Part shown: piece after piece, positions 30,209 to 56,972 of the stretch
Numbering within the stretch: the first letter of the stretch is position 1
Layout of the letters: each line of letters starts with the position of its first letter
Source of the DNA: a virus
Taxonomy: Duplodnaviria > Caudoviricetes
IMG/VR virus record: IMGVR_UViG_3300037692_000675
Coordinates: 1 to 56,984 of that record
Length of the DNA stretch: 56,984 bases
Reading direction: 5' to 3' (one strand)
Translations under genes and position numbers: made by a program
Notes under the pieces: model-generated
Told to the model about the DNA's origin: nothing
Database searches by the model: none
The model's input: only the letters and a program-made list of their open reading frames with translations

Positions 30209-31360
30209 TTACTCGCCCGCGCCCAGCGCCTCGCCCGCCAGCTCCGGCTGCTCGCCGTTGACCAGCTTGCACGCCTCGGCATGCGTCAGCGTCGGGTCGC
30301 CCTTCATCTTCGCCTGCACGGCCGCCTCATAGCGCTCGGTGGGGTCGCCCCCGCCGCCGGCCACGACGGCCGCGCGCTGCCCGCGCTCGACGATCGCCCC
30401 GGCCAGCGCCTGCATGTCGGCCACGAACTCCTCGCGCTCGGACCGCACCGGCTTGCCCTCGCCGTCGGTCCGCGGGGCGCCGTCCTCGCCGCGAATGGGC
30501 TGGCCGTCGCTGCCGTTCTCGGCGCTGACGGACAGCGCCCAGGTGGCGAGCTTGTCGCAGTACGCCGGCGTGAACTGCGGCTTGCCGTTGGCGCCAAAGC
30601 GCATCTCGGCGAAGCGGTCGGTCAGCTCCTTGACGGCGAGCTGCCGGGCCGTCTCCGCCTGCTGCGCCTCGGCGGCCGCGAGTCGCTCAGCCATCCGCCG
30701 GTTCTCGGCCTGCATCGCCTCGAACTGCTGCGCCGTCACGCCACTCGTCGGTGCCGGCGCCGTGGCCGTCACGCCGTTCCCCTCCCCTGTGGGGAGGGGT
30801 GCCGGCGCAGCCGGCGGGGTAGGCGACGTGGCCGTGGTCTTGGTGTCGTCAGGCATCGAACTGCCTCCTGGATCCGTGAACAGCTGCATCGTGTTCGCCG
30901 GGTCGGTCGCTGTGATCGGCGTCAGTTCCTTGAAAAACGGGTCGTTGGTCAGCGCGATCTTGGACAGCACGTTTTTGAAGCGCTTGTTGTCCGTCGGCCG
31001 CCGGTACACGTTGTAAAACTCCGGCGACACGTACCGGTACCGCCGGTTCATCACCAGCCGCTCCCCATAGTCCGTCCAGTCCACCTCGGCATACAGCGCG
31101 GCGCCGTCGGTGCGCAGGCCCTTCACCCACGCCGGCGCGCCCTCGTTGTTGTCGTAGTGGCTGATGTCGAAGGGAATGTCGCGGTTGAGGATGCGCTCGT
31201 TGAAGTTCGCGACGAACTGCTCGAGGTCTTGCGCGGTGATGACGATCTCGCCATACCAGGTGTGCGTCCACTGCCCGGCGCGCAGCACTTCAATTTCCCG
31301 CGGCAGTTCCGCGGGCAGCTCCACAAACGTCCGCAGCATCTCAAGTGTACGGTCACTCAT
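30209..31360 (-). CDS. Mu gpI-like prohead protease/scaffold
   Basis: PFDISHY..APAWV..LYAEVDWT..YRYVSPEF..IALTNDPF, coiled C-terminal scaffold. Confidence 0.9.
   Translation of the reverse strand: MSDRTLEMLRTFVELPAELPREIEVLRAGQWTHTWYGEIVITAQDLEQFVANFNERILNRDIPFDISHYDNNEGAPAWVKGLRTDGAALYAEVDWTDYGERLVMNRRYRYVSPEFYNVYRRPTDNKRFKNVLSKIALTNDPFFKELTPITATDPANTMQLFTDPGGSSMPDDTKTTATSPTPPAAPAPLPTGEGNGVTATAPAPTSGVTAQQFEAMQAENRRMAERLAAAEAQQAETARQLAVKELTDRFAEMRFGANGKPQFTPAYCDKLATWALSVSAENGSDGQPIRGEDGAPRTDGEGKPVRSEREEFVADMQALAGAIVERGQRAAVVAGGGGDPTERYEAAVQAKMKGDPTLTHAEACKLVNGEQPELAGEALGAGE
30776..30823 (+). repeat. REP-like family B (CCCTCCCCTGTGGGGAGGGG + second hairpin/G-tract)
   Basis: copies at ~30776 (in protease), 36570, 42821, 43211, 43611, 55650; variants ~14044, 15232, 20028, 37166, 52942, 55590. 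Confidence 0.9.
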
Positions 31361-31409
31361 AATCGTTTCCTACTCTACACGAAATTCAGCCGCGTCAAGC
31401 CCTACCCCG

Positions 31410-31432
31410 CACGGTGGAACAGTTCCACTGTG
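31410..31432. promoter_or_regulatory. palindromic operator candidate upstream of late head operon
   Basis: CACGGTGGAAC-A-GTTCCACTGTG (one mismatch) next to a minus-strand TTGACG. Confidence 0.5.
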
Positions 31433-31478
31433 ATGGCGCCAGCGCCCCCGGCAGTTCGATCAGGGCAGGAAAGACGCG

Positions 31479-31505
31479 AAAAGCCCCACCGGGTACGGTG
31501 GGGCT
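31479..31505 (-). terminator. intrinsic terminator for repressor operon
   Basis: AGCCCCACCG-TACC-CGGTGGGGCT followed by TTT. Confidence 0.7.
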
Positions 31506-32315: not shown

Positions 32316-32870
32316 CTACGCCCCCTTCTCTGGATCGTTGGCCTCCATCATCTCCATCATCACCGGCCGCCCCTTGATCCCCAGCACCAACCGCATGCCT
32401 GACAGTTCCCGCTTCCATTCATCGTTGCTCATGGGCAGCCGTGGCAGCGCGACCGCATGCTTGGCGAGGAGTGGCACTTCATCGGGCGCCAGCCTCATCT
32501 CCGCTGCTAACTCCGACACCACGAAGGCCCGAAGCGTTCCCGGCCAGTATTGTGGCGCCGGCCCGCGGTACACCTCGGGCCATTCGTCTTCTCGCAGCGT
32601 CCGACGCACGGCCAGCACGTCGGGAGGCACTTCTACCCAACCCGCGCTGCCGCCGCGTCCGACCAGGTCGGCGCACGGCACTTCCAGCGCGTCAGCGACT
32701 AACACCAGCAGATCATCAGCAATCCCGCGGGTGCCTCGCTCAACGTGCCCCAGGGCTGATTGCCCCACACCAACCCGCCGCGCCAACTCACTCTGGGTCA
32801 TCCCCGCGTTCACGCGCGCCGCCTTGATCCTCTCTCCCAATCCCGCGTCCCGCGCCTGCCCCTTGCGCAT
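32316..32870 (-). CDS. XRE-family HTH repressor
   Basis: LGERIKAARVNAGMTQSELARRVGVGQSALGHVERG; GGAGG RBS; divergent from early operon. Confidence 0.88.
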   Translation of the reverse strand: MRKGQARDAGLGERIKAARVNAGMTQSELARRVGVGQSALGHVERGTRGIADDLLVLVADALEVPCADLVGRGGSAGWVEVPPDVLAVRRTLREDEWPEVYRGPAPQYWPGTLRAFVVSELAAEMRLAPDEVPLLAKHAVALPRLPMSNDEWKRELSGMRLVLGIKGRPVMMEMMEANDPEKGA

Positions 32871-32953
32871 CGACACGCCTCCCTCACTATCCTGAACTGA
32901 TTCTGTACCCCAACCCGTCGGCCTCGAAACGGCGGGATTCCATGACGACCCCC

Positions 32954-32982
32954 TTGACAAGCTCAGTATGACTCTGTACTAT
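32954..32982 (+). promoter_or_regulatory. sigma70-type early promoter
   Basis: TTGACA-17 bp-TACTAT; TGA(T/C)TCTGTAC repeated at 32898 and 32969 (operator candidates). Confidence 0.75.
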
Positions 32983-33204
32983 GGCTCAGACATGTAGCCC
33001 CAATTTCAGCCAGAGACGGACACGCGGATCATGTCGATCGCCTCTTCCACGATGATGGCGCAGACAAACCAACAGCACCCGAGTCATGCGCGCAGGCCGC
33101 CAAGTACTGCTGCGCAGTTGCCCCGAACACTTGGCATCCGTGTGCCCAGGCGGGGGTCGTGTGGAAGCGGCCCCCGCCGCTTTACCTTCTCACGGAGGTC
33201 GTCC

Positions 33205-33591
33205 ATGGCACACGAGCTCAAGTTCGTCGGCGAACCGCTTACCGTCAACAGCCGCACTTGGCGTGTCGTTGATCCCGACTCTATCCCCGCGCCTCATCCA
33301 AACCTCACCTATGACGACTACGCGCTCTGGTGGCAGGGATTTGCGCAGATGCTGCCCGCCCATTGGCGCGCCCACGTGTTGTCGCTCGCGCTGTCGCGAT
33401 ACCCGGAGTACGCGGTCGAGCACTGCCACAACCTCCGCAACGAGATCCGCCTCGATCTTCTTGGCATGCGCATGCAGTACGGCATCTTCACTGCTCCAGG
33501 GCTCCGCCGTGCTGCCGACCTCATTGAGCGCGACATACTCGACGGGACCAACCGCTTTGCCACCGAGATGGGCGGTGATCAGCATGTCTGA
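33205..33591 (+). CDS. hypothetical early protein
   Basis: GGAGG RBS; overlaps transposase start. Confidence 0.65.
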   Translation: MAHELKFVGEPLTVNSRTWRVVDPDSIPAPHPNLTYDDYALWWQGFAQMLPAHWRAHVLSLALSRYPEYAVEHCHNLRNEIRLDLLGMRMQYGIFTAPGLRRAADLIERDILDGTNRFATEMGGDQHV

Positions 33592-35152
33592 TCAGGAGTT
33601 CGCCCTCACGCTCCAGTCCGCCGGCCTCATGGCCCCGACCCTCGACCGCGCGGTCCGCCGCGCCCGCATCCGCGACCTCTCCGTGCGCCTCGCCGTCTCC
33701 GAGGCCACGATCTACCGCCGCCTCGAGCGCCTCCGCAACGGCGAGCCCCAGCGCCGGGGCAACGGCGCCAAGGGCAAGTGCCGCGCCCTCCCGCCCGAGG
33801 TCCAGGTCGCCGCGCGGGCGATGATCGTCTCCAAGCGCTGGCAGTCCGTCTCGACCGCGCTCCTGCTTGAGCAGCTCCGCCACCAGTTCCCCGCCGAGAC
33901 GATCTCCCTCTCGGCCCTCCGCCGCCTGCGCCAGAGCACGCTGGCCGAGGTCAGCCGCTACGCGCGCGCGTACTGCGCCGTCGAGGTCGCCGCCCCCAAC
34001 GACCAGTGGCAGATAGACAGCTCGATCGGCGACTTCTTCTGTTCGCCGGAGGCGACCCTGAGCTCGCCGAAGGGGCCATTCCGCCCGCAGCTCACCGTCT
34101 GCGAGGACGCCCACACCCGCTCGATCATGTATGCCCGCTACGCCGTGGCGACCCCCTCCACCGAGATCGCGACGATTCTCTTCCAGGCCATCCGCCGCCA
34201 GTCCGACGTGTGGCCGCAGGCCGGCGTTCCCGCCGAGCTCCTGGTGGACTGGGGCAAGGTCTACATGAGCGACCACCTCGAGGCCGCTTTGGAAAACCTC
34301 GGCATCCGCCGCCACGCCAGCCACCCCTACTACCCGCAGGACAAGGGCAAAGTCGAGCGCGCCATCGGCACCCTGCATCACGGCGTCGAGCCGCTCTTCC
34401 CCGGCTACTGCTCCAATAACAACCAGGGCGACCTGCGCGTGGACCCGGCCCGCGACTTCCGGCAGGTCGGCGAGCACTTCGTGGACAAGCGCGACGGCCG
34501 CCGCCTGCTCACGCTCCCCGAGGCCAATGCGCTGCTGTGGCAGTGGATCGCGGGCACCTATCATCACCAGGTGAACCGCACCATGGGCCTCACACCGCTG
34601 CAGTCCTGGCAGATGAGCGCCCCGCGCCCGCACACTTTCTCCGAGGCCTATCTCGAACAGTCGCTGCTCCCGCGCGCCTACCGCAAGGTCGCCCGCGGCC
34701 GCATCAACTGCCATGGCCTCACCTACACCCACGACACGCTCTTGCGCTGCCACGGTCTCACGGTCGAGGTCCGCTTCGACCCGGCCGACGTGCGCGAGGT
34801 CTTCATCTACCACGAGGGGCAGCGGCTCTGTGTCGCGGCCCAGGACAACCCGCTCCTCGCCGGCACGCAGCTCGCCGCCGACGAGCTCGTCCGCCGCCGC
34901 CAGGAGAATCGCGCGGTCGCGGCCGAGAAGCGCGCGCTGCTCGACGATCTTCTCGCCAACCCGGCGGCCCGCGCCGATCTGACCGAGCGCATCCGCGAGG
35001 CCGATGCGAACGCCCCGGCGATCGCGGCCGCGGCCCCCGAGGAAGTGCTGCCCACCGGCGTCCCGGGCCTCACGCCTGGCGACGCCGCCGAGATGTCGGA
35101 CCTTGAAATCGGCGGTCTGCGGCTCTTCCGCCCGCGCGCCGTCAACGAGTGA
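33584..35152 (+). CDS. MuA-like DDE transposase
   Basis: HTH (VSEATIYRRL), WQIDSS / LLVDWGK / KGKVER triad, YHHQVN..LTPLQSW, C-terminal VEVRFDPADVREV. Confidence 0.93.
   Translation: MSDQEFALTLQSAGLMAPTLDRAVRRARIRDLSVRLAVSEATIYRRLERLRNGEPQRRGNGAKGKCRALPPEVQVAARAMIVSKRWQSVSTALLLEQLRHQFPAETISLSALRRLRQSTLAEVSRYARAYCAVEVAAPNDQWQIDSSIGDFFCSPEATLSSPKGPFRPQLTVCEDAHTRSIMYARYAVATPSTEIATILFQAIRRQSDVWPQAGVPAELLVDWGKVYMSDHLEAALENLGIRRHASHPYYPQDKGKVERAIGTLHHGVEPLFPGYCSNNNQGDLRVDPARDFRQVGEHFVDKRDGRRLLTLPEANALLWQWIAGTYHHQVNRTMGLTPLQSWQMSAPRPHTFSEAYLEQSLLPRAYRKVARGRINCHGLTYTHDTLLRCHGLTVEVRFDPADVREVFIYHEGQRLCVAAQDNPLLAGTQLAADELVRRRQENRAVAAEKRALLDDLLANPAARADLTERIREADANAPAIAAAAPEEVLPTGVPGLTPGDAAEMSDLEIGGLRLFRPRAVNE
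34054..34076 (+). repeat. REP-like family D (GACCCTGAGC..CGAAGGG)
   Basis: copies/variants at ~20601, 34054 (in transposase), 38454, 41362, 44119, 44324, 51458. Confidence 0.75.
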
Positions 35153-35334
35153 ACGCTATGCGGCCGCGCCGCAGCGAGGGCCCGCACGCCCCTGCCGTGA
35201 CCGGCCCGGCCGCAGATCTGTTGCCGTTGCCGTTGCCGTCCCTGTTTTTCCGTCCTTCTGTTCTTCTGTCCTGCGCCTTTCGCCGTTCGCAGGCCGCCAC
35301 CTGCACCAAATCTGCTGCAAAGGAGAGCCAGCCC

Positions 35335-36060
35335 ATGCCACGTCGCCCGGTGCTCAAACCTGCCGTCTGGCCCATCCCGGCTTTTCAGGAAACGGCCAAG
35401 GCCCTGCAGCTCGCCTCGGAGTTGGCCACCAGCCGCCGCCCGCTCTCGCTGATCACGGCGCCGGCCGGATCGGGGAAGACCTTCGCCGCCGAGTGGTACG
35501 CCGAGCAGAACCGCTCCTGCAAGATCGCGGTCTGTCCCCCGGCCTACTTGCTCTCGGCCCGTTCGTTGCTCGAGGCCGTCGCCGGCGCCATCGGCTACAC
35601 CGAGACTCACTGGCGCGTCGCCGCGCTCTTTGACAACCTGGTCGCCTACACTGCCAACCGCCACATCTTCCTGGTGCTCGACGAGGCGGACCGCATGAAC
35701 TCGCGCGCGGCCGACCTGCTGCGCGAGCTGGCTGAGGACGCCGACCTGGCCCTGTGTTTCCTCGGCTGCCCGGGCACGCTCGCCACCTTGGCCCGCGTCC
35801 CGGCCACCCACCACCGCATCGGTTTCCGCTTCGAGATCCCGCCGGTGGAGCTGGCCGACGTCGCGCGGATCCTCGATGGCCGCTACGACGACGCCACAGT
35901 GGAGGAGATCTTCGAGCAGACGGGCGGCAACCTGCGCCACATCGAGGCGGTCATCGCGCTGGTGGACAAGGCAGAGAGCGGCGGCCGCCGCGCCACGGCG
36001 AGCCCGAAGCTGGTCCGCGCCCTGGCCCACCGCTATCTGCTCAAGGCGGTGGCCGCATGA
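35335..36060 (+). CDS. MuB-like AAA+ ATPase
   Basis: AAGGAG RBS; APAGSGKT Walker A, LVLDEAD Walker B, GGNLRHI. Confidence 0.9.
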   Translation: MPRRPVLKPAVWPIPAFQETAKALQLASELATSRRPLSLITAPAGSGKTFAAEWYAEQNRSCKIAVCPPAYLLSARSLLEAVAGAIGYTETHWRVAALFDNLVAYTANRHIFLVLDEADRMNSRAADLLRELAEDADLALCFLGCPGTLATLARVPATHHRIGFRFEIPPVELADVARILDGRYDDATVEEIFEQTGGNLRHIEAVIALVDKAESGGRRATASPKLVRALAHRYLLKAVAA

Positions 36061-36629
36061 CCTCCCGCCCCGCCCCGCCCACCTACACCTCCGAGTCCTG
36101 GACGGCCGACACCGTCCTCTCGAACTTGCGCGCAGACTTGCCGCCGTTCTCGCGCCTCTTCCTCTACCTGTGTGTGAACGACGAGACGGGTGCCCTGGTG
36201 CATGCGGAGTATGCCTGCCATGCGGACTACCTGGCCGAGTTCATCCGCCATGCGATCGCGGTCCAGGGCCAGCGGGTTCCGAGCCGGCTGACGCTCGATC
36301 CTGGCAAGCAGCGTTGGGTGGCGGAGTTCGCCCCGTTGGACCTGATCCAACTGGCGGCGCCGCCCTACCATCCCTCGGTGGGCTGCCGGGTGGAGCGCTT
36401 CGCCCTGGTGATCCGTGATCGTTTCGAGGGCGCGCTGCTCGCCACTCCGGATCATCCGGACCTCCGTTCGGTCGTGGACCTCAACACTGCGCTGCGGGCC
36501 TGGCTGCGCCGCTCCCCCTTGTTGGGCCCGCCGGCCAGTGCCGCCGCCGCCGCCGTTGACCTTGCCTCTCCCCTCCCCTGTGGGGAGGGGTACCGGCGAA
36601 GCCGGGGGGGTGGGCCCCATGCCCACTGA
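36057..36629 (+). CDS. stand-alone DDE/integrase-core-like protein
   Basis: WTADT, LTLDPGK, PYHP..GCRVERF, DLNTALRAWL parallel the transposase core; no DNA-binding domain. Confidence 0.65.
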   Translation: MTSRPAPPTYTSESWTADTVLSNLRADLPPFSRLFLYLCVNDETGALVHAEYACHADYLAEFIRHAIAVQGQRVPSRLTLDPGKQRWVAEFAPLDLIQLAAPPYHPSVGCRVERFALVIRDRFEGALLATPDHPDLRSVVDLNTALRAWLRRSPLLGPPASAAAAAVDLASPLPCGEGYRRSRGGGPHAH

Positions 36630-37264: not shown

Positions 37265-37831
37265 ATGGCCGCCACAAAGAAGCGCAAGCCCGATGCCGCA
37301 CCCATCTTCGCCGGCTGGGCCGACGTGGACGACGCCCTCAAGCAGATCGGCCAGCTCGACCTGGTCATCGGCAAGGCCGAGACCCGCGCCAACGCCCTCA
37401 AGTCGAAAGCCGACGACGAGCTCGCGGTCGTCGCGGACCAGGTGAACACCAAGAAGCGCCTGGAGAAGGACATGGAGGAGTACTGCACCGCCCACAAGGA
37501 CGAGATCCTGCCGGCGAAGAGCAAGCGCCTCAACCACGGCGTGGTGGGCTTCACGGCGTCGCGTGAAGTCAGCCAGCTCAAGGGCTTCACCTGGGCGGCC
37601 GTCCTGCAGGTGATGTTGCAGCCGGTGCAGGACGCGCTGATCAAGCTGATCGAGAAGCTGGGCAAGCGTTTCGTGCGGGTCAAGTGCGAGGTGGACAAGG
37701 CGGCGATCCTGGCGGCCCACAACGCCAAGCAGACGACGGACGCGAAGCTGGCTGACCTGGGCGTGGCGGTCGTGGACAAGGACAACTTCGGCTACACGCT
37801 CTCGGACGCCAAGGCCCAGCCGACTACCTGA
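37265..37831 (+). CDS. gam: Mu Gam-like host-nuclease inhibitor
   Basis: DVDDALKQIGQL..YCTAHKDEI..KSKRLNHGVVGF..EVDKAAIL..DNFGY; AAGGAG RBS. Confidence 0.88.
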   Translation: MAATKKRKPDAAPIFAGWADVDDALKQIGQLDLVIGKAETRANALKSKADDELAVVADQVNTKKRLEKDMEEYCTAHKDEILPAKSKRLNHGVVGFTASREVSQLKGFTWAAVLQVMLQPVQDALIKLIEKLGKRFVRVKCEVDKAAILAAHNAKQTTDAKLADLGVAVVDKDNFGYTLSDAKAQPTT

Positions 37832-38016
37832 TTCCCTGGGCGCCCGGAACCGGCGCCATTGCCGACGCACACCCCGGGGCGGGGTCTCTCCCCTGACCCG
37901 CCCCGGGGGCAGCACCAACCGATCATTCCGAGGGGCGCCCCGGAGGGGCGCTTCTCTCAGGCGGAAGCGGTCGGTAACGACCGCATTTCAACCCCCGACC
38001 GAAAGGATAGGCCGCC

Positions 38017-38746: not shown

Positions 38747-39627
38747 TGGCCACGAAGAAGCCCGCACCAAAGAAGAAGGCGACCCCGAAGCCTCCGCCCC
38801 GGAGGGGCGGTTCTCAGAAGGCGGGGGTTTCAACCCCCGCCCGTGCGCCCGTCCGGAGGAGCAAGCTCCCGGCCCCTGTGCCCCGGCCGCTTTCTCACGC
38901 CGAGGTGCTCAAGCGCATCCAGGCGACGACGAAGCACGAGCGCCCCAAGCTCACGCGCCGCGACATCGGCGCCTTTGTGGCCGACTTCCCGCCCGACTTC
39001 TACGACCTGCCCTGCATCAACTCCAACTGCAAGCTATGCAAGGCCGTCACGCCCCACCAGGACCTGCGCCGCGCGGTCAACATGATGCTGCTCGCCGGCC
39101 ATCCGCACCCCGATATCGTCGCCCTGTTGGCCGAGCACGACATCGAGGCCACGCCCCAGAACCTTTCCGGCCATTACCGCAAGCACGTGCTGCCGTACGT
39201 GCTGGACCTGATGCGCCTGAAGGCCCAGACGACGGTCTTTGTGCAGGCGGCCCGCGACCTGGGGCAGGAGGACAGTCTCGCCCAGACGCTGGTCAAGTCG
39301 CTCTTGCTCAAGCTGCAGCCGTGCGTGGAGGCGCTGGACCCGTCCCAGCTCGCCCTCGTGGAGCCGGACAAGCAGATTGCGCTGCTCTTGCAGGCCGCCA
39401 AGTCGCTCTCTTCGGTGCAGAACGCCGAGGCGGGCACGAAGCTGCGCACGCTCGAGCTCGCCCTCAAGCGGGCGAAGCTGTCGGACGCCGAGCGCGAGGC
39501 GATGAAGCGCGCCGCCGGCGAGCTGCGCGCCATCCTCAAGGCCCACCCGCAGGTCTGGCAGGCGGTCGAGCCGATCCTGGCGCCGCTGGCCTCCCTGCCC
39601 GGCCTCCCGGAGGTGCCGGGTGGCTAA
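38746..39627 (+). CDS. Mu gp27/DUF3486-like putative small terminase
   Basis: CKLC..NLSGHYRKH, helical C-terminus; directly upstream of large terminase. Confidence 0.6.
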   Translation: MATKKPAPKKKATPKPPPRRGGSQKAGVSTPARAPVRRSKLPAPVPRPLSHAEVLKRIQATTKHERPKLTRRDIGAFVADFPPDFYDLPCINSNCKLCKAVTPHQDLRRAVNMMLLAGHPHPDIVALLAEHDIEATPQNLSGHYRKHVLPYVLDLMRLKAQTTVFVQAARDLGQEDSLAQTLVKSLLLKLQPCVEALDPSQLALVEPDKQIALLLQAAKSLSSVQNAEAGTKLRTLELALKRAKLSDAEREAMKRAAGELRAILKAHPQVWQAVEPILAPLASLPGLPEVPGG

Positions 39628-41340: not shown

Positions 41341-42132
41341 ATGACTGCTCTTTCGCAGAAAGACCCTGAGCCGCGCTCGCCGACGAGCGCCAGTCGCAGG
41401 GCCCCCTATGGATCCACGCGCCGCTCTTTTGCCTGCACGGGTGGCGTGAGCCCCACCCACTACCGCGAGCGTTCGGCCTACGACGATCGCCCCCGCCGCG
41501 GCCATTTCTTCGGTGCGGGCCTCGGCTGCCTCTGGCTCGCGAACTTCCTGGTGGCGGGCCTGATCCTGGTCACCCTCCACCCCTGGTCCCCGGTGAACGC
41601 CGACGCCGTAAGCCGTGGGAGCGCCGGCATCCTGCCGGCGGCCGTCGCCGCTGACGTGGCCGTGGACGTTGACGTCCCCGCCTGGTCTACCGAAACCGAC
41701 CCCTTCCGCCGCTGCGCCCGCAAGGCCCTGGCCGGCGAGTACGGCGCCCTGAAGCCCTGGCAGCGCACCGCCTACGAGCGCGGCCTGCGCGCGGGCCTGA
41801 CCGCCGCCCGTGGCGCCAAGCGCACGACGTACTGCCCGAGGTGCAGCGGCCGCACGTGCGCGGACGGCAGCCCGGTGCGCCGCGGCGTGGTCTCGGCCAG
41901 CCGCAACGTGCCGATGCACTCGCTCGTGTGGCTGGCGACCGATGGCCTGCTGCTGGTGACGGATCGCGGCGGCTGGGTGAAGGTCGGGGGCCGCTTCACG
42001 CGCGCGGGGGAGAGCGCGAACTTCGATGTCTGGAAGCCCCGGTGCGTGGGTGACTGCTGGCACGGGCCGGGCACGAAGCGCCGCGTCCCGTACGTGATCC
42101 TGCGCGCGGGCGCCCCGGGCGGTGAGAGTTGA
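41341..42132 (+). CDS. membrane-anchored 3D/DPBB-domain peptidoglycan-modifying protein
   Basis: TM segment then TTYC..TCADG..VSAS..VTDRGG..FDVW; start uncertain. Confidence 0.6.
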   Translation: MTALSQKDPEPRSPTSASRRAPYGSTRRSFACTGGVSPTHYRERSAYDDRPRRGHFFGAGLGCLWLANFLVAGLILVTLHPWSPVNADAVSRGSAGILPAAVAADVAVDVDVPAWSTETDPFRRCARKALAGEYGALKPWQRTAYERGLRAGLTAARGAKRTTYCPRCSGRTCADGSPVRRGVVSASRNVPMHSLVWLATDGLLLVTDRGGWVKVGGRFTRAGESANFDVWKPRCVGDCWHGPGTKRRVPYVILRAGAPGGES

Positions 42133-42458: not shown

Positions 42459-42892
42459 TGCCCGCCTGGACTGTCGTGACGCGCGACGGCACGGCCCGCC
42501 ACGAGGTGCTCGCGCACGAGAGCGGCCTCTTCGGCCACGTGGATCTCAACAAGTCGGGGCTTTCGCCCTCCTGGTCCGTGGCCATCGCTGCCGATCACTA
42601 CCAATGGGGTTCCCCGGAGACGCTGGCGACTGGCAGCGTCTGCCTGGGGCACACAGGGCTGACGCCCAAGCCGCACCGCGAGTACGCGGTGCTCGTCGCT
42701 CGGGCCCTGGCCGAGGGGGCCATCGAGTTTCTGCTGCGCTACACCCATCCGCGCCTGAGCCTCGAGCACGACGCCGGCATGGGTCATGTCCGCACTCCAG
42801 CCGCGGCCGTTGACGTTGACGTTCCCCTCCCCTGTGGGGAGGGGTGCCCGCCGCAGGCGGGCGGGGTAGGCGCCGTGGGCGGTGGGCCATAA
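42458..42892 (+). CDS. hypothetical protein, C-terminus REP-derived
   Basis: TGATG and TAATG couplings. Confidence 0.55.
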   Translation: MPAWTVVTRDGTARHEVLAHESGLFGHVDLNKSGLSPSWSVAIAADHYQWGSPETLATGSVCLGHTGLTPKPHREYAVLVARALAEGAIEFLLRYTHPRLSLEHDAGMGHVRTPAAAVDVDVPLPCGEGCPPQAGGVGAVGGGP

Positions 42893-43197: not shown

Positions 43198-43311
43198 CCG
43201 TCGCCGTTGACGTCCCCCTCCCCTGTGGGGAGGGGGTAGGGGGTGGGCAACGATAGGAGCCACCATGTCCGCGCAACAGTCTGGACACAAAGTGGGCGGG
43301 GGGGGGACAGC

Positions 43312-43596: not shown

Positions 43597-43656
43597 TCCG
43601 TCGCCGTTGCCGTTCCCCCCTCCCCTGTGGGGAGGGGGTAGGGGGTGGGAGCCGTC

Positions 43657-44316: not shown

Positions 44317-44391
44317 GCCTGCCGTCCCCGCAGGGGACCCTGAGCGCAGCCGAAGGGTTGCCGTTCACTAAAATCTGAGCTCTGAACTCTG

Positions 44392-44658
44392 ATGCCCGGC
44401 CTAACACCAACCATCCAGCTCCTCCAGGCGCGCAGCTCGGCGTTGGCCTCGAGTCTCCGCGAGTTGCACCTATTCCCACGCCTGGAGGAGCTGCAGTCTG
44501 ACCTGATCGCCGACAAGGAAGCCGCCCTGGCCTCCCACACCGAGGCCCTCATCATCTTACAGCAGCACCAGGCCGTTGCGCCGTCCGCGTCCCGGAGGGA
44601 CGCTTTTCAGCAGGCGGGGGTTTCAACCCCCGACCAGGTCACCCATGCCCACGGTTGA
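44392..44658 (+). CDS. small coiled-coil protein
   Basis: C-terminus encoded by family C repeat. Confidence 0.4.
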   Translation: MPGLTPTIQLLQARSSALASSLRELHLFPRLEELQSDLIADKEAALASHTEALIILQQHQAVAPSASRRDAFQQAGVSTPDQVTHAHG

Positions 44659-51365: not shown

Positions 51366-51592
51366 CCTTGTCTCCTGCCGTTGCCGTTACCGGGACCGCG
51401 GGCGTCTCGCCCGCGCGCCGTTGCCGTCTGCCGTTACCGTTGTCGTTCCCCTCTCCGGACCCCGAGCGAAGTCGAGGGGGAGGGAGAGGGGTAGGGGTGA
51501 GGACGCCGTTCCGCGTGCGTCCCGGAGGGACGCTTCTCTGAGGCGAAGCGGTCGGCACGACCGCATTTCAACCCCCGACTGCGGCTCAGCCA

Positions 51593-51901
51593 CTACAAAC
51601 TCCCCTCGAACACCCACGTCTCCCCATCGTCCCCGCTCACATACACATCAATGTCGGGCGTCCGCGCCACAGCCACCACCAGCCGCCGCCCCTGGCTCTC
51701 GGTCTTGATCAGCCCCGCCCGCGCCTCATCTGCCGCCGCTGCCACGAGCCTCTCCTCACTGCCGTCCACAAACCTCAGCCAGGTCTGCCCCCCATCCGCC
51801 GTCCTCCGGATGTACACCGCCCCCTCCCGATATCCGGTCAGATACACGATGCCGTTATGCTCCACCATCGTCGGATATGTCAGCCCACCCACCGTCGCCA
51901 T
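51593..51901 (-). CDS. small Asp-box (BNR) protein
   Basis: GGAGG RBS; TADGGQTW and SGDDGETW. Confidence 0.65.
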   Translation of the reverse strand: MATVGGLTYPTMVEHNGIVYLTGYREGAVYIRRTADGGQTWLRFVDGSEERLVAAAADEARAGLIKTESQGRRLVVAVARTPDIDVYVSGDDGETWVFEGSL

Positions 51902-51997
51902 ACCGCCTCCATGCCGTTGCCGTTGTCGTTCCCCTCTCCGGAGCGAAGCGAGGGAGAGGGGTAGGGGTGAGGACGCCGTTCGCCGTTCACTTGCCAC

Positions 51998-54900
51998 TCA
52001 ACCACTCAACCACTCCTCCCCATCATCCACCGACACCCACCCCACCGTATCCCCCTCGCGCTGCCAGAACAGCCTCAGCCGCCCCCCCTCATCCTTCTCC
52101 GCGCACGGCTCCGTGTTCTCACCCTCACTCGTGATCTGCCGGGCCTCCTGCCACGGGTTGGCCAGGCCTTCCCGCCGCTGCATCCAGATGTTCCCCTCGC
52201 GCGCGTAGAAGATGAACATTTGCTCGACCGCATCGTCCATCAGGTGCGGCCCGCTCGCTCCGCCGCTCCAGCCGAGCTGCAGCGCCGCCGGCGTCGCCCG
52301 CCGCTCCTCGACCGGCGTCCCCAGCGGGCTCGCCAACAGCCCCACATCGTTCACGACCGTGAACCGGCACGCCGCCCCTGCCGGCTCGACCACCCGCGCC
52401 CCCGTCACTGCCACATACAGTCCGCACCCGCGGTACGGACTCGCCTTCCGCTCCGCGGCCCACTTGCCGACCGCCTTCAGCGCCACCACATCACTCAGCG
52501 GCCTGTCCGCGTTTGGCCCCCGCGTTCCCGCCGGGATCACCACCCGCACGGTCTCCTGGCTGCCATTCTCCAGCCGGCAGTCCAGCTCGACGGTCACCTC
52601 CGCCGCCTGGCTGTACTCGGTCGGAAACACGAGCTTCATCTGCGTCACGCCCAGGTTCCGGTCCACCTCCGGCAGCGCCCCGAACCACGCCAGGTCATGC
52701 CCCGCCGTGAACGCTGGCGTGCCTTCACTATCGAACCGCCCGAACCCCAGCCCCTCCGCAACCTCGTCCACATGCTGTGCGAACCACCGCAACGCATTAG
52801 TCGCCTGCCCGGCCCCGCTCTGGGTCAGGTAGTTGTCATTCTCCTCATACAGATCCGGCCGCCAGTGGTACCGGATGTCATACCTCCGACTCCCCCCACC
52901 CCTCGGCACTACCACGGATTCCAACCGGTGACCGCTGCCTTGCCCCCCCTCCCCCGTGGGGAGGGGGCCGGGGGGTAGGGCGGGCGTCGTAAAATGTGTC
53001 CTCCCATCCATCGCGTTCCCCATCCCGAACGCCATCGCACACTGCCAGCAACACCCTCGCACAAACCCCGCCGCGCTCGGGTCCCGCCACAGCGGCCCGC
53101 CGCAGTACGGGCACACCAGGTCCGCGAAGCACGCCCTCCGCGCCGCGCCGCCGATCGCCGTCACCTGTGTGAACCACTCATGCGCCCCGAACTCCAGCCC
53201 GATCCGCGCCGCCTCCGGCAGCTCCAGCCCGATGGCCTCCCCGCACCCGGTCACGACCCCGCCGTGTACCTTGCCGCCGATCAGGAACTTCGCCTCCGGA
53301 TAGAACCCCGCCGCCCGGTACTGTCCTGGCAGCGTCTCATACTCCTCGAACGACTGCGCCTCCAGACAGAACTCATTCAGCAGCACTTCCCTTGGCGTGC
53401 GCAGCCGGTAGTACCGCAGCTGCGGCCCGCCGACGATCAGCTCGTTGATGTCCTCGACATGTCGGTACTTCGGCAACGTCTCGACCGTCACCCAGCCCCC
53501 GTACGCCGCCTCCGTGGTCCCGAACTGCGCCTCCGTCTCGATGTCCTCGACGACGATCTCATCCTGCACGTACTGGAAGTTCGCGTGCCCCCGGTCGCCC
53601 TTGCGCCACGCCTCCGGCTTGTACATCTCGGCGAACCCCGCGTACGCCCGGGCCCCCAGCACCACATCCGAGTAGGGGAAACCCAGCACCGGCACCGACC
53701 CCCACTGCGGGTCATGTACCCACGGGTCGCCCCCGAACCCCTCCGCCGGAATCTCCGCCTCCCAGTATCCGCCGCCATCCGTCGTCGCGATCGCCTCGCC
53801 GACCACGCCGCTCTCATAGTCAATCGGCACGATGGCGATCCCCGCCGCCGGCACCCCCATCCGCTCATACACTCGCCCGGCGATCAGGTTGCCGCCCTGG
53901 TCGTAGAAGTCCATCACGCCCATGCCGACCGTGGCCGTGCCGCCTTCCTGCACCCCTACGATCTGCCGCGCACACCCCCACTCCGACTCCCATTCCCCCC
54001 ACCCGTTCAGCTTGAACTGCACCACCCCATGCTCGCCCGTCGGCAACCCCTCGACCGTGACGCTCCCCTCCGCGCCGATCAAGTAGTTCCCGCCGCTCTC
54101 ATCCAGCGTCCCGACCTTCACCCACGCCCCCGGTTCGCCGCTCACCACCAGCTTGCCGCTCAAGATGTCAATGACCGCCTCGGTCCCTTCGCTCAGTTCC
54201 GCCTTCCGCCCCAGGTACGCCATCGCTAGCCGCGTCAACTTCCGCGGCGGCGCCTGGCTCGCTGTCTCCTCACTGTCATCCCGCCGGTCCCCCTCGCGCT
54301 GGTAGATCGCGCCGTGCCCCTTCGGGCAGATGAACGCCCACCGCCCGTCCTCGCCGGTCATGATCGGCGCAGTCACCAGCGCCCCCTCGACCCACGTCTC
54401 CAGCGTGTCCGACCAGATCAGCTCGTTGTACTCGAGGCTGTCCCAGAATATCGCCGCCCCGCCCGGCCCCTCGACGACACCTTCCAGGCTGACATTCGCG
54501 CCCTCCTGCGGCACGCCGTCATGCAGCACCCGCCCCCGCACCCAATACCCCATGACACAGGTCTCACTCAGGGGTGCCGCCGCGTACCCCACCCCTTGTA
54601 TCCTCCGCCCCCAGTACGGGTCATCCACCATCACCGCATACTGCGGCTCCAGCTCGAACTCGCCGCCCACGAACCCCAGCTGTCCGGTCGCGAGCTTCTG
54701 GATCAGGTACACCGCCACATTCGGCAGCATCACCTCCGGCGTCCGCGCCTTGTACACCATCACCTCGATGGTCCCGGCCGCCGTCGCGAAGCTCGCACTC
54801 CCGCCGCTGGTGTACTGCCGCTGCACGGTGACGCCGGCCTCGCCTCCCAGCCGGATGACCTCCGGCTCCCACCCGCCATCCTCCCCGGCCTGCAGCAGCC

Positions 54901-55222
54901 CCCACGCCTCCTCCAGCTCCCCGACCTCGCTCCACGTCCGCACCGGCGCCCCATGCAAGAGCCCCAACAGCTGGCCCAGCGCCACGACCGCCTGCCCCTT
55001 GTCCCGCTCCTCCCCTGCCGTCCGATCCTCCGCCTCCCAATCGAACGCATGGCTCCCATCATCCCGCCAGTTGAGTTCGATGAGCGCCAGGATGCAGTAG
55101 CTCAGCACGGCCTTCAGCGCGGCGGTATTGGCCGGATTGTCTTGGGCCTCTGCCTCTTTGGCCCGGATGTCATTGACGAGCCCTTCCAGCCTCTCACCCA
55201 GCCCGGGATTCACCTGCCCCAT
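51998..55222 (-). CDS. large multidomain protein of outer tail-like cluster
   Basis: beta-sandwich-like repeats (VRGRVL..GANV; IAGRVY..TTDGGGYW), CPYC..CWQC, C-terminal SVDDGEEW; in-frame REP at ~52942. Confidence 0.7.
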   Translation of the reverse strand: MGQVNPGLGERLEGLVNDIRAKEAEAQDNPANTAALKAVLSYCILALIELNWRDDGSHAFDWEAEDRTAGEERDKGQAVVALGQLLGLLHGAPVRTWSEVGELEEAWGLLQAGEDGGWEPEVIRLGGEAGVTVQRQYTSGGSASFATAAGTIEVMVYKARTPEVMLPNVAVYLIQKLATGQLGFVGGEFELEPQYAVMVDDPYWGRRIQGVGYAAAPLSETCVMGYWVRGRVLHDGVPQEGANVSLEGVVEGPGGAAIFWDSLEYNELIWSDTLETWVEGALVTAPIMTGEDGRWAFICPKGHGAIYQREGDRRDDSEETASQAPPRKLTRLAMAYLGRKAELSEGTEAVIDILSGKLVVSGEPGAWVKVGTLDESGGNYLIGAEGSVTVEGLPTGEHGVVQFKLNGWGEWESEWGCARQIVGVQEGGTATVGMGVMDFYDQGGNLIAGRVYERMGVPAAGIAIVPIDYESGVVGEAIATTDGGGYWEAEIPAEGFGGDPWVHDPQWGSVPVLGFPYSDVVLGARAYAGFAEMYKPEAWRKGDRGHANFQYVQDEIVVEDIETEAQFGTTEAAYGGWVTVETLPKYRHVEDINELIVGGPQLRYYRLRTPREVLLNEFCLEAQSFEEYETLPGQYRAAGFYPEAKFLIGGKVHGGVVTGCGEAIGLELPEAARIGLEFGAHEWFTQVTAIGGAARRACFADLVCPYCGGPLWRDPSAAGFVRGCCWQCAMAFGMGNAMDGRTHFTTPALPPGPLPTGEGGQGSGHRLESVVVPRGGGSRRYDIRYHWRPDLYEENDNYLTQSGAGQATNALRWFAQHVDEVAEGLGFGRFDSEGTPAFTAGHDLAWFGALPEVDRNLGVTQMKLVFPTEYSQAAEVTVELDCRLENGSQETVRVVIPAGTRGPNADRPLSDVVALKAVGKWAAERKASPYRGCGLYVAVTGARVVEPAGAACRFTVVNDVGLLASPLGTPVEERRATPAALQLGWSGGASGPHLMDDAVEQMFIFYAREGNIWMQRREGLANPWQEARQITSEGENTEPCAEKDEGGRLRLFWQREGDTVGWVSVDDGEEWLSG

Positions 55223-55447
55223 GCGATCCTGCCTCTCTGCCTCGTGTGTGTGTCGTGCCGCTATCGGGACCGCGAAGCGGACCGCAGGTCCGCAGGGCGT
55301 CTCGCCCGCGCGCCGTTGCCGTTCCCCTCTCCGGAGCGAAGCGAGGGAGAGGGGTAGGGGGGAGGACGCCGTTCAGCCTTTGCCTTCCGCCGTTGATGCG
55401 TCCCGGAGGGACGCTTGTCTCAGGCGGGGGTTTCAACCCCCGCCCGG

Positions 55448-56137
55448 CTACCGACTCAACTCCAGCCTCAGATCCTCTTCCTCATCAAACTCCGCTCGCC
55501 GTCGCCGTTCGCCGTTCCCCTCTCCGGAGCGCAGCGAGGGAGAGGGGTAGGGGTGAGGATGTCGTTCGTCGGGTCGTTGCTGTTCGCCGTCCCCCCCTCC
55601 CTGTTCAGGGAGGGGGGGCAGGGGGGGTAGGCGGTCGTTGCCGTCTGCCGTCCCCCTCCCCTGTGGGGAGGGGGTGCCCTGCGCAGCAGGGCGGGGGTAG
55701 GCGCCGTCGGAGGGGCCGGCTATTAGCCGGCCCGTCGTTCGGATCTCCTCCCCCCAACCCTCCTCCTCGACCGCCTCTGCCTTCCGCCTCTGCCTTCCCC
55801 CCTCGCGCTCCTCGACTCTTGCCTTCAGCCTCTCCCGCAACTCCCCCAGCCGCCTCGCCTCCCGCCGCCGCCGTTCGGGGTAGGGGATAGGGGACACGCC
55901 CTCTGCCTGCCGCCTCTCCTCAACTCTCAGCTCCCCGTCTCGCTCGCGTCTCGCCTCGGCCTCCCCGCCTCCGCCCCCAACCGTCGCCGCCTCGACTCCC
56001 TCCACCACCACCGCCTCAACCTCAACTGCCTCCGCCGCCTCCGCCTCCACCATCCCCACCACTGCCTTCGCCATCGCCAGCATCCTGGGCAGCACCGGCG
56101 CCGGCGCGCGCCGCACGATCTCATGGCTCGCCCTCAT
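55448..56137 (-). CDS. charged hypothetical protein in tape-measure position, carrying stacked in-frame repeats
   Basis: ATGA-coupled to chaperone extension; open frame through 55500..55740 repeat stack. Confidence 0.5.
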   Translation of the reverse strand: MRASHEIVRRAPAPVLPRMLAMAKAVVGMVEAEAAEAVEVEAVVVEGVEAATVGGGGGEAEARRERDGELRVEERRQAEGVSPIPYPERRRREARRLGELRERLKARVEEREGGRQRRKAEAVEEEGWGEEIRTTGRLIAGPSDGAYPRPAAQGTPSPQGRGTADGNDRLPPLPPLPEQGGGDGEQQRPDERHPHPYPSPSLRSGEGNGERRRRAEFDEEEDLRLELSR

Positions 56138-56469
56138 GCTTGCCGCGCCCCTTTGCCCTGCCAGAATGCCGCCCACAGCTCCACCTTCCACGCCGGCTGC
56201 CGCGCATACGCCTCACCCGTGGGCAACTCCCCGGTCGCCTCATGCAGCCGCAGCTCCCGCATCACCGCCAGCACGAGCACCGCCCACGCCGGCACGCGCA
56301 CCGCCTCGGCCTCACTCCCCGCCAGCAGCGCCGCCGCCTCCCGCGCCTCCGTAAAGTCCACGCCCTCGCGCAGCCTCACCGCCGCCTCCGGCAGCTCCCC
56401 CGCGAGCAGCTCTGCCGGCCCCGCCATCAGGCCTTGCTCCTGCCGCCCGAGCTGCCTCAGCCTTTTTTT
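56134..56469 (-). CDS. -1 frameshift extension of outer tail assembly chaperone
   Basis: A AAA AAA (56463..56469) just before stop; -1 frame gives KKRLRQ...LPTGEAYARQPAW. Confidence 0.65.
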   Translation of the reverse strand, partial: KKRLRQLGRQEQGLMAGPAELLAGELPEAAVRLREGVDFTEAREAAALLAGSEAEAVRVPAWAVLVLAVMRELRLHEATGELPTGEAYARQPAWKVELWAAFWQGKGARQA

Positions 56470-56972
56470 GCGGTCTCGATCACCGCCCGCTGCTCCGGCA
56501 GCCGCCGGTTCACGCGCTCGATCTCGCGGTGCAGCCACTCCGCCAGCGCCGGCTGCATCCGCCCCAGCACCTCCGCCGCCGCGCCGTTGCCGTTGTCGTT
56601 CCCCTCTCCGGAGGCCGAAGGCCGAGGGAGAGGGGTAGGGGTGAGGACGCCGTTGGTTTCCGCACCCCGCCCGATCCTCCGCTCCACAATCGTCCCATCA
56701 CTTTGCACTTCCGGCACACACGCCTCCACCACACAGTGCTCATGGTCATACTCGGCCATGAGCCGCAGATCATACGTCCGCCGCACGCGCACCGCGGGCT
56801 CTTGCAGCCCGCCCGTGACCAGTTCATACTCCTCGGCCAGCCCCAGGCTTTCGCGTTCCAGGGCCTCAGCCTCAGTCAGCGCCCTCAGCCTCACCCACGG
56901 CCTGCATTCCCATCCAGGCACTTCCACCGGCGCCTCGATCACGATGCTCCTCTCGACGCCCGGCCCACACAC
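56457..56972 (-). CDS. tail assembly chaperone-like protein of outer element
   Basis: GAGGAG RBS, GTG start, WVRLRALT..WLHREIERVN, slippery site at 3' end; in-frame family A repeat. Confidence 0.65.
   Translation of the reverse strand: MCGPGVERSIVIEAPVEVPGWECRPWVRLRALTEAEALERESLGLAEEYELVTGGLQEPAVRVRRTYDLRLMAEYDHEHCVVEACVPEVQSDGTIVERRIGRGAETNGVLTPTPLPRPSASGEGNDNGNGAAAEVLGRMQPALAEWLHREIERVNRRLPEQRAVIETAKKG

What the first reader, a model, noticed from the sequence alone, without database searches (positions are those of the whole stretch)
30776..56655. Palindromic repeats translated in frame inside essential phage proteins
Seen: repeat-encoded peptides in the protease/scaffold linker (PAPLPTGEGNG, 30776), the transposase loop after the first catalytic Asp (ATLSSPKG, 34054), the putative small terminase (RRGGSQKAGVSTP, 38794), the 3D protein (41362, 41617), the 43657 ORF, the 1074-aa protein (PPGPLPTGEGG, 52942) and the outer chaperone (LTPTPLPRPSASGEGNDNGNG, 56583). 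All leave the frame open. Known analogue: Rickettsia palindromic elements. Inference: the genes stayed under selection while repeats arrived, so the elements are probably functional.
Basis: partly seen in the sequence, partly recalled or inferred. Interest (0 to 1): 0.75.

Follow-up and report, generated by a model that had tools for sequence, protein, structure and literature searches.

The report
Hairpin repeats read inside phage genes
A Mu-like prophage is peppered with short GC-rich hairpin repeats, and at least six of them sit in frame inside conserved phage genes as extra loop or linker peptides that relatives lack, much like the palindromic elements of Rickettsia, but nothing shows that the peptides do anything.

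Summary
The repeats are real and far above chance: 7 copies of CCCCTCCCC-NNN-GGGGAGGGG, 5 of GGGGGTTTCAACCCCC and 4 of GACCCTGAGC against 0.00, 0.00 and 0.20 in shuffles. Every copy points the same way.

- protease/scaffold linker
- transposase loop
- N-terminal tail of the presumed small terminase
- linker of the 1074-aa protein
- a loop of the 171-aa protein, the cleanest case, with about 25 extra residues missing from 23 homologues

I found a sixth at 44587. One place (43657) is not in the ORF. One (41362) lies in a doubtful N-terminal extension. One (41617) sits in a variable linker.

Of 26 copies in four families, 16 are intergenic, although about 81% of the window is coding. The elements carry few or no stop codons in most frames. 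The same elements reach 10-40 times the phage's depth in one sediment metagenome, and similar hairpins lie between housekeeping genes elsewhere.

Best reading: REP/RPE-like repeats have colonised the phage, and only harmless in-frame copies survive. The inference that the elements are "probably functional" does not.

The parts
30779..30799 (+). A palindrome (CCCCTCCCC-TGT-GGGGAGGGG) plus a second hairpin up to about 30826. The minus-strand protease/scaffold gene 30209-31360 reads it as PAPLPTGEGNG.
34040..34080 (+). F element (small hairpin + GACCCTGAGC + CCCT..AGGG), read as SPEATLSSPKGP in the loop after the first catalytic Asp of transposase 33587-35152.
38795..38842 (+). C element (double hairpin), read as PPRRGGSQKAGVSTPA in the N-terminal tail of ORF 38746-39627, which lies upstream of the large terminase.
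41362..41371 (+). F motif in the doubtful N-terminal extension of ORF 41329-42132.
41622..41680 (+). Hairpin CGCCGGCATCCTGCCGGCG plus GNCGTN hexamers, in the variable linker of ORF 41329-42132.
36570..36590 (+). A palindrome plus a second hairpin in the C-terminal tail (…SPLPCGEGYRRSRGGGPHAH*) of ORF 36057-36629. The next gene starts at ATG 36619.
42824..42844 (+). A palindrome plus a second hairpin in the C-terminal tail (…VDVDVPLPCGEG…*) of ORF 42458-42892.
43215..43247 (+). Intergenic A palindrome with a GTAGGGGGTGGG tail.
43617..43649 (+). Intergenic A palindrome with a G-rich tail, directly upstream of ATG 43657. It is not in the ORF.
44587..44635 (+). C element, read in frame as a 22-aa insert near the C-terminus of ORF 44392-44658. 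Rfam Acido-Lenti-1 scores 29.8 bits on the minus strand, below its threshold of 37.
52946..52966 (+). A palindrome with a CGT loop, read as PGPLPTGEG at residues 753-759 of the minus-strand 1074-aa ORF 51998-55222. Distant relatives are split into two genes at this exact junction.
56573..56660 (+). B element (hexamers, a 35-nt hairpin and a GGGGTAGGGGTGAGGAC tail), read as GVLTPTPLPRPSASGEGNDNGNG in minus-strand ORF 56457-56972.
4577..4662 (+). Intergenic B element, 99% identical over 86 nt to the copy at 51913-51998.
51420..51998 (+). Intergenic cluster holding a B variant (51448), a C variant (51517) and a B copy (51931).
55306..55733 (+). Repeat-laden non-coding stretch holding B (55324), C (55398), B (55517), a 12-bp-stem hairpin (55591), A (55653) and hairpin G (55713).
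12212..12260 (+). Intergenic C element.
21239..21285 (+). C element just downstream of the stop of gene 21289-21597.
37935..38010 (+). C variant with a nested extra hairpin, downstream of gam. A like copy sits next to a Mu gam gene in metagenome locus L233.
20601..20610 (+). F motif inside ORF 20093-20764. No homologue was available to check it.
44336..44345 (+). Intergenic F element after the stop of ORF 43657-44316.

Best explanation
The window is a Mu-like provirus colonised by several families of short, non-autonomous, GC-rich palindromic repeats of the REP/RPE kind.

The families are:
- A: CCCCTCCCC-TGT-GGGGAGGGG, with or without a second hairpin, followed by a G-tract tail.
- B: a longer variant of A.
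- C: a double hairpin ending in GGGGGTTTCAACCCCC.
- F: a small hairpin followed by GACCCTGAGC.

A and B are usually flanked by GCCGTT-type hexamer arrays.

The elements belong to a pool shared with cellular genomes of the same community. They arrive repeatedly and mostly end up at gene boundaries. Insertions inside genes survive only under three conditions: they add a multiple of three bases, bring no stop codon, and land in a disordered linker, surface loop or terminal tail. There they are translated as Pro/Gly/Thr/Ser-rich filler such as PLPTGEG, GVSTP or NGNG.

What is shown: the repeats, their in-frame position, their absence from homologues, their turnover between close relatives, and their excess depth outside the phage.

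What is inferred: the way they move. The uniform orientation points to a strand-specific, single-strand-DNA mechanism like that of IS200/IS605-RAYT enzymes. Also inferred: that the translated peptides are neutral passengers.
For: The repeats are real and all point the same way.

Homologues lack the peptides:
- protease/scaffold: 5 of 5 database homologues, plus R
- 1074-aa protein: all 19 of the 24 aligned homologues that span the site lack the peptide
- 171-aa protein: 23 of 23, plus a phage relative
- presumed small terminase, ORF 44392 and the transposase loop: against R and L352

The inserted stretch in the 171-aa protein is coil. Its three 10-residue blocks over residues 101-130 have mean pLDDT 58, 50 and 58, inside a core at 85-95.

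Turnover between relatives is clear. The closest relative R has 60-82% amino-acid identity, with MuB lower at 38%. It carries the same kinds of element at other places, including a 38-aa insert in its own transposase (…AQGVSTPDQ…) and 7 C hairpins in 13 kb, all in one orientation. The more distant relatives G003 and G004 have none.

The elements are dispersed outside the phage:
- In run X1, summed contig depth at the elements is about 90-420 against about 7-11 for the unique phage contigs. 485 of 681 laid contigs fit only partly, and contigs break at the elements.
- The C hairpin occurs in more than 122 metagenome stretches. Some lie between metE and nifU or between maf and purC.
- The generic A palindrome occurs 33 times in one 5.1-Mb Abditibacteriales MAG, with 0 in the control, and in many phyla.

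The elements avoid coding sequence: 16 of 26 copies are intergenic although about 81% of the window is coding.

Stop-free frames were expected.

REPs and RPEs inside ORFs, and REP ends that supply stop codons, are already described (PMC3733652, passages read; PMC10969869, passages read). In this window 7 minus-strand genes end in TAA-CGGC, running straight into a repeat array.
Against: No host genome is at hand, so copy number and orientation in the host were not measured. The exact TGT-loop form was found in only 1 of 201 genomes of the Abditibacteriales MAG's phylum. The C hairpin was found in 0 of 301 Planctomycetota.

No transposase of the RAYT/IS200 type was found among the 56 window ORFs scanned with Pfam.

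No clean target-site duplication was seen. There is one possible 6-bp repeat, ACCAGG, around the 44587 insert.

No presence/absence polymorphism could be seen, because contigs end inside the elements.

The repeat density is far higher than in the one cellular genome counted: 7 A copies per 57 kb against 33 per 5.1 Mb.

Several copies sit exactly at gene or domain junctions. All four in-ORF A copies use one codon phase (CCC CTC CCC). Both facts could instead reflect selection for a function.

Three of eight elements fold better than shuffles (z about -3). Five do not.
Confidence: 0.6

Rival explanations
1. The hairpins are the phage's own 'punctuation' signals. They would act in RNA at gene and domain boundaries to stabilise mRNA, attenuate transcription, pause ribosomes or donate Shine-Dalgarno-like GGAGG sequences. 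On this view they are kept by selection, and the in-ORF copies mark internal boundaries such as protease|scaffold or the junction of a fused gene pair.
For: The copies cluster at junctions. The 52946 copy lies exactly where 3 aligned homologues end and 2 begin, and where relative L001 has two genes. The 30779 copy lies between the protease and scaffold parts. The G-rich tail puts GGGAG a few bases before ATG 43657 and AGGAG before ATG 43266. A C variant lies downstream of gam in the window, and like copies lie near gam in R and in L233. Density is about 20 times that of the one cellular genome counted.
Against: Orientation is the same on the + strand whether the genes run + or -, so the flanks differ in the RNA. 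No T-run follows the hairpins, which are followed by G-tracts. Element type and position differ between close relatives, and homologues do well without them. The same elements are 10-40 times deeper than the phage in the metagenome, and like hairpins lie between housekeeping genes.
Confidence: 0.25
2. The elements are recombination hot-spots that shuffle gene modules between phages, as proposed for the stem-loop cassettes of T4-type phages. That comparison is recalled and was not checked here. On this view the in-frame copies are scars of such joins.
For: Two B copies that are 99% identical over 86 nt (4577-4662 and 51913-51998) flank modules that are adjacent in relative G003 but 45 kb apart in the window. 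Run X1 holds contigs that join one element to another in different orders (tables 5 and 5c). The 1074-aa ORF is one gene here and two genes in L001.
Against: The joints may simply come from other loci or other organisms that carry the same repeats. 19 of 24 aligned homologues are already fused without any element, so the fusion came before the insert. The inserts in the 171-aa protein and in ORF 44392 lie inside otherwise collinear genes.
Confidence: 0.1
3. The in-frame copies are assembly artefacts: repeat-induced chimeras or collapsed repeats in a metagenome assembly.
For: Contigs of an independent assembly end inside the elements at 43218-43243, 43620-43643, 52950-52972 and 56609 (table 8). 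The two overlapping relative contigs G005 and G306 differ by a 22-nt foldback at a palindrome, which looks like an artefact.
Against: One Logan contig spans 37000-43243 with a single difference, and another spans 43620-49554 with none. Together they cover the copies at 38795, 41362-41680, 42824 and 44587. However, X1 may be the sample the window came from. Every in-ORF copy keeps a long conserved frame open on both sides, which random misjoins would not do.
Confidence: 0.04

Closest known systems
Rickettsia palindromic elements (RPE)
   Same: These are short palindromic repeats inserted in frame into unrelated, conserved genes. They are translated as extra peptides that homologues lack, at places compatible with the fold (PMC10969869, passages read).
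   Different: Here the host is a Mu-like phage of a 68% GC environmental bacterium. The units are 21-90 nt, whereas RPEs are about 150 bp by that review. The sequences are G/C homopolymer hairpins with hexamer arrays. Only about a quarter to a third of copies are in ORFs. No RPE sequence was compared here.
REP elements, including GTAG- and CGTC-tagged families (Di Nocera et al. 2013, PMC3733652)
   Same: These are 20-40 bp GC-rich stem-loops. They are mostly intergenic and close to the 3' ends of genes. Some lie entirely within ORFs, often at the N- or C-termini, and some supply the stop codon (passages read). In this window 7 genes end in TAA-CGGC at the edge of an array.
   Different: All copies here share one orientation, rather than forming head-head or tail-tail dimers. 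The stems lack the A/T first two positions described for CGTC families. 'GTAG' follows some stems, but the cross-phylum relatives show other letters there. No RAYT gene is in the window.
Rfam Acido-Lenti-1 RNA motif (RF01687; Weinberg et al. 2010, PMC2864571)
   Same: Family C has the same two-hairpin layout. A metagenome copy sharing the GGGGGTTTCAACCCCC hairpin passes the family threshold, at 38.6 and 38.8 bits against 37.
   Different: The window's copies score 29.8 and 25.4 bits, below the threshold. The paper lists the motif only as a probable non-coding RNA of Acidobacteria and Lentisphaerae (table read). It says nothing of phages or of translation.
In-frame MITEs of bacteria, for example Coxiella QMITE (PMC5896051, search listing only)
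   Same: These are small non-autonomous repeats that can fuse in frame with host ORFs.
   Different: MITEs are defined by terminal inverted repeats and target-site duplications. Neither was demonstrated here.

Membership tests
RPE-like in-frame palindromic insertions (functional class) | A repeated palindromic element occurs in many copies. | tested here: met
   There are 7 A, 6 B, 7 C and 4 F copies, against 0.00-0.20 expected by chance.
RPE-like in-frame palindromic insertions (functional class) | Copies lie inside conserved ORFs with the frame kept, and are absent from homologues. | tested here: met
   Six sites meet this: 30779, 34054, 38795, 44587, 52946 and 56601.
RPE-like in-frame palindromic insertions (functional class) | The insert lies in a surface loop or linker compatible with the fold. 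| tested here: met
   In the AlphaFold model of the 171-aa protein the insert is coil with 10-residue block means of pLDDT 50-58, between strand 95-101 and helix 128-137. The other sites lie in length-variable segments.
RPE family proper (Rickettsia) | Sequence similarity to RPE-1 to RPE-10, about 150 bp, in Rickettsia. | not tested
   No RPE sequence was at hand. Size and composition differ from the description in PMC10969869.
GTAG/CGTC REP families | A terminal GTAG or CGTC tetranucleotide. | tested here: inconclusive
   GTAG follows the stem in the A-short and B copies. CGTT or CGTC precedes the stem. Cross-phylum relatives have varied letters at these places.
GTAG/CGTC REP families | For CGTC families: stems of 8-9 bp with A/T in the first two positions, and a CCA tail. 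| tested here: not met
   The stems here are CCCCTCCCC / GGGGAGGGG, against the description read.
GTAG/CGTC REP families | Frequent head-head or tail-tail dimers in opposite orientation. | tested here: not met
   All copies of A, B, C and F lie on one strand.
GTAG/CGTC REP families | An associated RAYT (IS200/IS605-type) transposase. | tested here: not met
   None was found among the 56 window ORFs scanned with Pfam. The host genome was not available.
MITE | Terminal inverted repeats and a target-site duplication. | tested here: inconclusive
   There is one possible 6-bp direct repeat, ACCAGG, around the 44587 insert. No other case was resolved.
Rfam RF01687 Acido-Lenti-1 | A score at or above the gathering threshold of 37 bits. 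| tested here: not met
   The window's copies score 29.8 and 25.4 bits. A related metagenome copy passes at 38.6 and 38.8 bits.
Intrinsic terminator | A GC-rich hairpin followed by a T-run. | tested here: not met
   The hairpins are followed by G-tracts or further hairpins. No terminator scan was run.

The most novel reading that the evidence does not exclude
These are members of an undescribed, cross-phylum class of strand-specific elements built from a hairpin plus a G-tract. One form is a hexamer array, then CCCCTCCCC-loop-GGGGAGGGG, then GGGGTGGGG, whose G-runs could also form a quadruplex. The other form is an Acido-Lenti-1-like double hairpin. On this reading the elements are actively mobile in Mu-like phages, and their in-frame copies are selected as linker or 'punctuation' modules. 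Examples would be the protease|scaffold boundary and a boundary where relatives have two separate genes. They would then be more than tolerated junk.
Probability: 0.2. Interest if true: 0.8.

Novelty: new variant of a known kind. Interest (0 to 1): 0.55.

Why it matters
In-frame palindromic repeats are a textbook oddity of Rickettsia and a few other bacteria. Four literature searches (listings only) turned up no report of them inside the core genes of a phage.

Here they lie in a transposase, a head protease/scaffold, a presumed small terminase and conserved virion-module proteins. They turn over visibly between close relatives.

This gives a natural experiment on which loops of phage machines tolerate 4-25 extra residues. 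It also bears on how host-type repeats enter phage genomes.

It carries a warning for annotation. ORF starts, ends and 'fusions' in such GC-rich phages are partly shaped by stop-free repeats.

Tried and rejected
**Host identification failed.**
- The genome search draws no relatives for a virus record.
- The protease was not found in two genomes reached through repeat loci.
- The C hairpin was in 0 of 301 Planctomycetota.
- The TGT-loop A form was in 1 of 201 genomes of the Abditibacteriales MAG's phylum.
- The Atlas search with the large terminase gave only viral clusters.
- tblastn of the large terminase against cultured phages gave only hits under 25% identity.
- The only hint is that two homologues of the 171-aa protein are named 'Armatimonadetes bacterium' by their source.

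**Other blanks.**
- The B tail had 0 exact matches in viral contigs.
- Earlier-findings look-ups were empty.
- No RNA holder is listed for the window, so expression could not be examined.
- Read laying used contigs only, so presence/absence alleles could not be seen.
- The Foldseek PDB search with the 171-aa model found nothing at E <= 0.001.

**Ideas dropped.**
- I dropped the idea that the 1074-aa ORF is a fusion created by the repeat. 19 of 24 aligned homologues are single chains without it.
- An ORF in L001 between the two homologous genes is Arg/Gly-rich and has no match in the window. I judged it not to be a gene.


Full report
**What the window is.** It is a 56,984-bp IMG/VR provirus record with an estimated completeness of 51% and 66-71% GC.

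Pfam and PHROGs identify these Mu-like genes:
- transposase (ORF 33086-35152; I take the start to be near 33587)
- MuB-like ATPase (35149-36060)
- Gam (37265-37831)
- large terminase (39620-41335)
- Mu gp36-like and virion-morphogenesis proteins
- Mu-type portal (47297-49297)

On the minus strand lie a Mu-like protease/scaffold (30209-31360), a scaffold-like protein, the major head protein (27941-28840), a tail tube, a tape measure and further tail genes. There are also two glycosyltransferases.

These are the '3D protein' (41329-42132), the 'small terminase' (38635/38746-39627) and the 'outer chaperone' (56457-56972). A confident model of the last finds no PDB fold at E <= 0.001.

**The repeats.** Four main families stand out.
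- A is CCCCTCCCC-TGT-GGGGAGGGG. It is preceded by GNCGTN hexamers. It is followed either by GTAGGGGGTGGG or by a second hairpin and GGGGTAGG. There are 7 copies plus 2 variants.
- B is CCCCTCTCC-GGAGCGAAGCGA-GGGAGAGGGG-TAGGGGTGAGGAC, set between GCCGTT arrays. There are 6 copies. Two of them are 99% identical over 86 nt.
- C is a double hairpin, GCGTCCC-GGA-GGGACGC … GGCGGGGG-TTTCAA-CCCCCGCC. There are 7 copies, two of which carry a nested extra hairpin.
- F is a small hairpin whose stem differs in each of the four copies, then GACCCTGAGC, then a CCCT…AGGG stem. There are 4 copies.

Against dinucleotide shuffles the counts are 7 against 0.00, 5 against 0.00 and 4 against 0.20. Every copy lies in the same orientation on the + strand. 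This holds although the genes run minus up to 31 kb, plus from 33 to 49 kb, and minus again after that.

As RNA, three of eight elements tested fold better than shuffles (z -3.0 to -3.3). Five do not, and the F copy in the transposase scores z +1.4.

**Checking the in-frame claims with homologues.**

- Protease/scaffold. PLPTGEG sits in the variable linker after the protease domain. Five database homologues at 28-49% BLASTP identity lack it. So does the closest phage relative, at 56-60% identity.

- The 1074-aa protein. HMMER found 84 relatives. I aligned 24 of them. Nineteen span the site as one chain without the peptide, three end there and two begin there. In relative L001 the two parts are separate genes with a 53-nt spacer. 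The window has about 9 extra residues exactly at this inter-domain junction.

- The 171-aa protein. A phage relative aligns on both sides of a 25-residue gap. All 23 database homologues, at 48-86% identity, have only a short variable loop there. In an AlphaFold model (mean pLDDT 81.8) the insert is coil, with 10-residue block means of pLDDT 50-58. It lies between a strand and a helix of an otherwise confident fold.

- Comparison with R. I built a working composite of two overlapping IMG/VR contigs (G005 and G306), which I call R. Amino-acid identity to the window is 60-82%, with MuB lower at 38%. Against R, the window has:
  - +6 aa in the transposase loop after the first catalytic Asp. This loop also varies in a third relative.
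  - +11 aa in the N-terminal tail of the ORF upstream of the large terminase. Its ATG at 38746 is conserved, with an upstream in-frame stop in R.
- +22 aa, a whole C element, five codons before the stop of ORF 44392-44658.

**Claims that do not hold, or hold only weakly.**
- The 43617 copy ends in its own in-frame TAG and lies upstream of ATG 43657.
- The 41362 motif lies in an N-terminal extension of the 267-aa ORF. None of the 10 homologues aligned shares that extension, and all 46 found cover only the C-terminal half. By my own count, GC3 there is about 70%, against 89% for the gene.
- The 41622 hairpin with its hexamers lies in the variable linker and is probably translated.
- The copies at 36570 and 42824 are read as C-terminal tails (…PLPCGEG…) of ORFs that have no orthologue in R.

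**Why open frames are no surprise.** The A palindrome has no stop codon in any of six frames. B has none in the orientation that minus-strand genes read. C has one closed frame in each direction.

Of the 26 A, B, C and F copies, six are in ORFs with homologue support. Four are in unvalidated ORF parts or tails. Sixteen are intergenic. By my gene list about 81% of the window is coding. So the elements are depleted from genes, and the survivors sit in the most tolerant places.

The edges of the arrays also shape gene ends. Seven minus-strand genes stop with TAA-CGGC running into an array. This parallels the REP ends that supply stop codons (PMC3733652, passages read).

All four in-ORF A copies are read in the same codon phase. 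With n = 4 this is only suggestive.

**Where the elements come from.**
- Relative R has its own A-type palindromes with other loops and many C hairpins, 7 in 13 kb and all in one orientation. They lie at other positions, including a 38-aa in-frame insert in its transposase.
- Two more distant relatives at 65-66% GC have none.
- In one sediment metagenome that holds the window, contigs break at the elements. Summed contig depth is about 90-420 at the elements against about 7-11 for the unique phage contigs. 485 of 681 laid contigs fit only partly. The elements are therefore multi-copy outside this phage in that community.
- The C hairpin occurs in more than 122 metagenome stretches of 38-70% GC. 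Most sit within other conserved flanks. Some lie between housekeeping genes and one lies next to a Mu gam gene. One such copy passes the Rfam Acido-Lenti-1 threshold, while the window's copies fall short.
- The generic A palindrome, often followed by GGGGTGGGG, is found in many phyla. It occurs 33 times in one Abditibacteriales MAG.
- The host itself was not identified. Two homologues of the 171-aa protein are labelled Armatimonadetes by their source.

**Reading.** The simplest account is that REP/RPE-like palindromic repeats from a pool shared with cellular genomes have repeatedly entered this phage lineage. In-frame copies persist only where they are harmless.

The uniform orientation suggests a strand-specific way of insertion. 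But no transposase of the RAYT type is in the window, and no clear target duplication was seen.

A functional 'punctuation' role at gene and domain boundaries cannot be excluded. It is favoured by the junction positions and the high density. It is disfavoured by the orientation, the turnover between relatives and the dispersal outside the phage.

In four literature searches I found no report of such in-frame repeats in core phage genes (listings only). REPs and RPEs inside bacterial ORFs are well described. Supplements of those papers were not read.

Noticed in passing
12328, 15388, 18782, 26652, 27941, 28991, 30209 (gene ends, minus strand): Seven minus-strand genes stop with TAA followed by CGGC and run straight into repeat arrays. 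The edge of the array (GCCGTTA on the + strand) seems to supply the stop codon in a 68% GC genome where TAA should be rare.
   Followed up: partly
12268-12334, 15321-15394, 22662-22718, 25550-25616, 27895-27951, 28931-28997, 44368-44408: Arrays of a 7-nt unit (CTGACCT or CTGAGCT on the + strand, CAGAGGT as read by the minus-strand genes) lie just downstream of late genes. Octamer arrays (ACTCGCCC) lie at 4920-4977 and 30167-30224. Their role is unknown.
   Followed up: no
55223-56456: About 1.2 kb between two conserved minus-strand genes has no convincing gene. It is packed with B, C, B, a 12-bp-stem hairpin, A and a further hairpin. The hairpin GGGCCGGCTATTAGCCGGCCC recurs at 18757.
   Followed up: partly
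2483-2782 and 6842-7141: A 300-nt stretch is repeated at 97% identity inside two paralogous family-4 glycosyltransferase genes. A sulfotransferase-like ORF lies between them at 5522-6367.
   Followed up: no
29381-29711: There are three tandem 114-nt units at 71-85% identity inside the scaffold-like gene 28991-30115. This is an internal protein repeat.
   Followed up: no
4577-4662 and 51913-51998; relative G003: Genes homologous to window 3782-5446 lie next to those homologous to 49548-56972 in relative G003, but 45 kb apart here. Near-identical B copies sit at both places, which may mark a repeat-mediated rearrangement.
   Followed up: partly
G306 2835-2856 versus G005 (relative contigs): Two otherwise 99.9-100% identical contigs differ by a 22-nt inverted duplication at a palindrome inside the presumed small-terminase gene, which shifts the frame. 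It looks like an assembly foldback.
   Followed up: partly
loci L003-L126 (many phyla): The motif CCCCTCCCC-NNN-GGGGAGGGG is often followed by NN-GGGGGTGGGG. It recurs in Sphingomonadaceae, Oscillospiraceae, Bacteroidales, Chloroflexi, Planctomycetes and others. Its four G-runs fit a quadruplex motif that would compete with the hairpin.
   Followed up: partly
loci L232, L298, L311, L320: The C-type hairpin occurs in head-to-tail arrays. Match spacings are 66 and 132 nt in L298, and 152 and 125 nt in L232, all in contigs of 51-56% GC.
   Followed up: no
window 32316-32960 (minus): An HTH_3 repressor-like gene diverges from the transposase side. Head and tail genes also run leftwards from about 31.4 kb. 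The same layout is seen in relative R, and it differs from the Mu gene order as I recall it.
   Followed up: no
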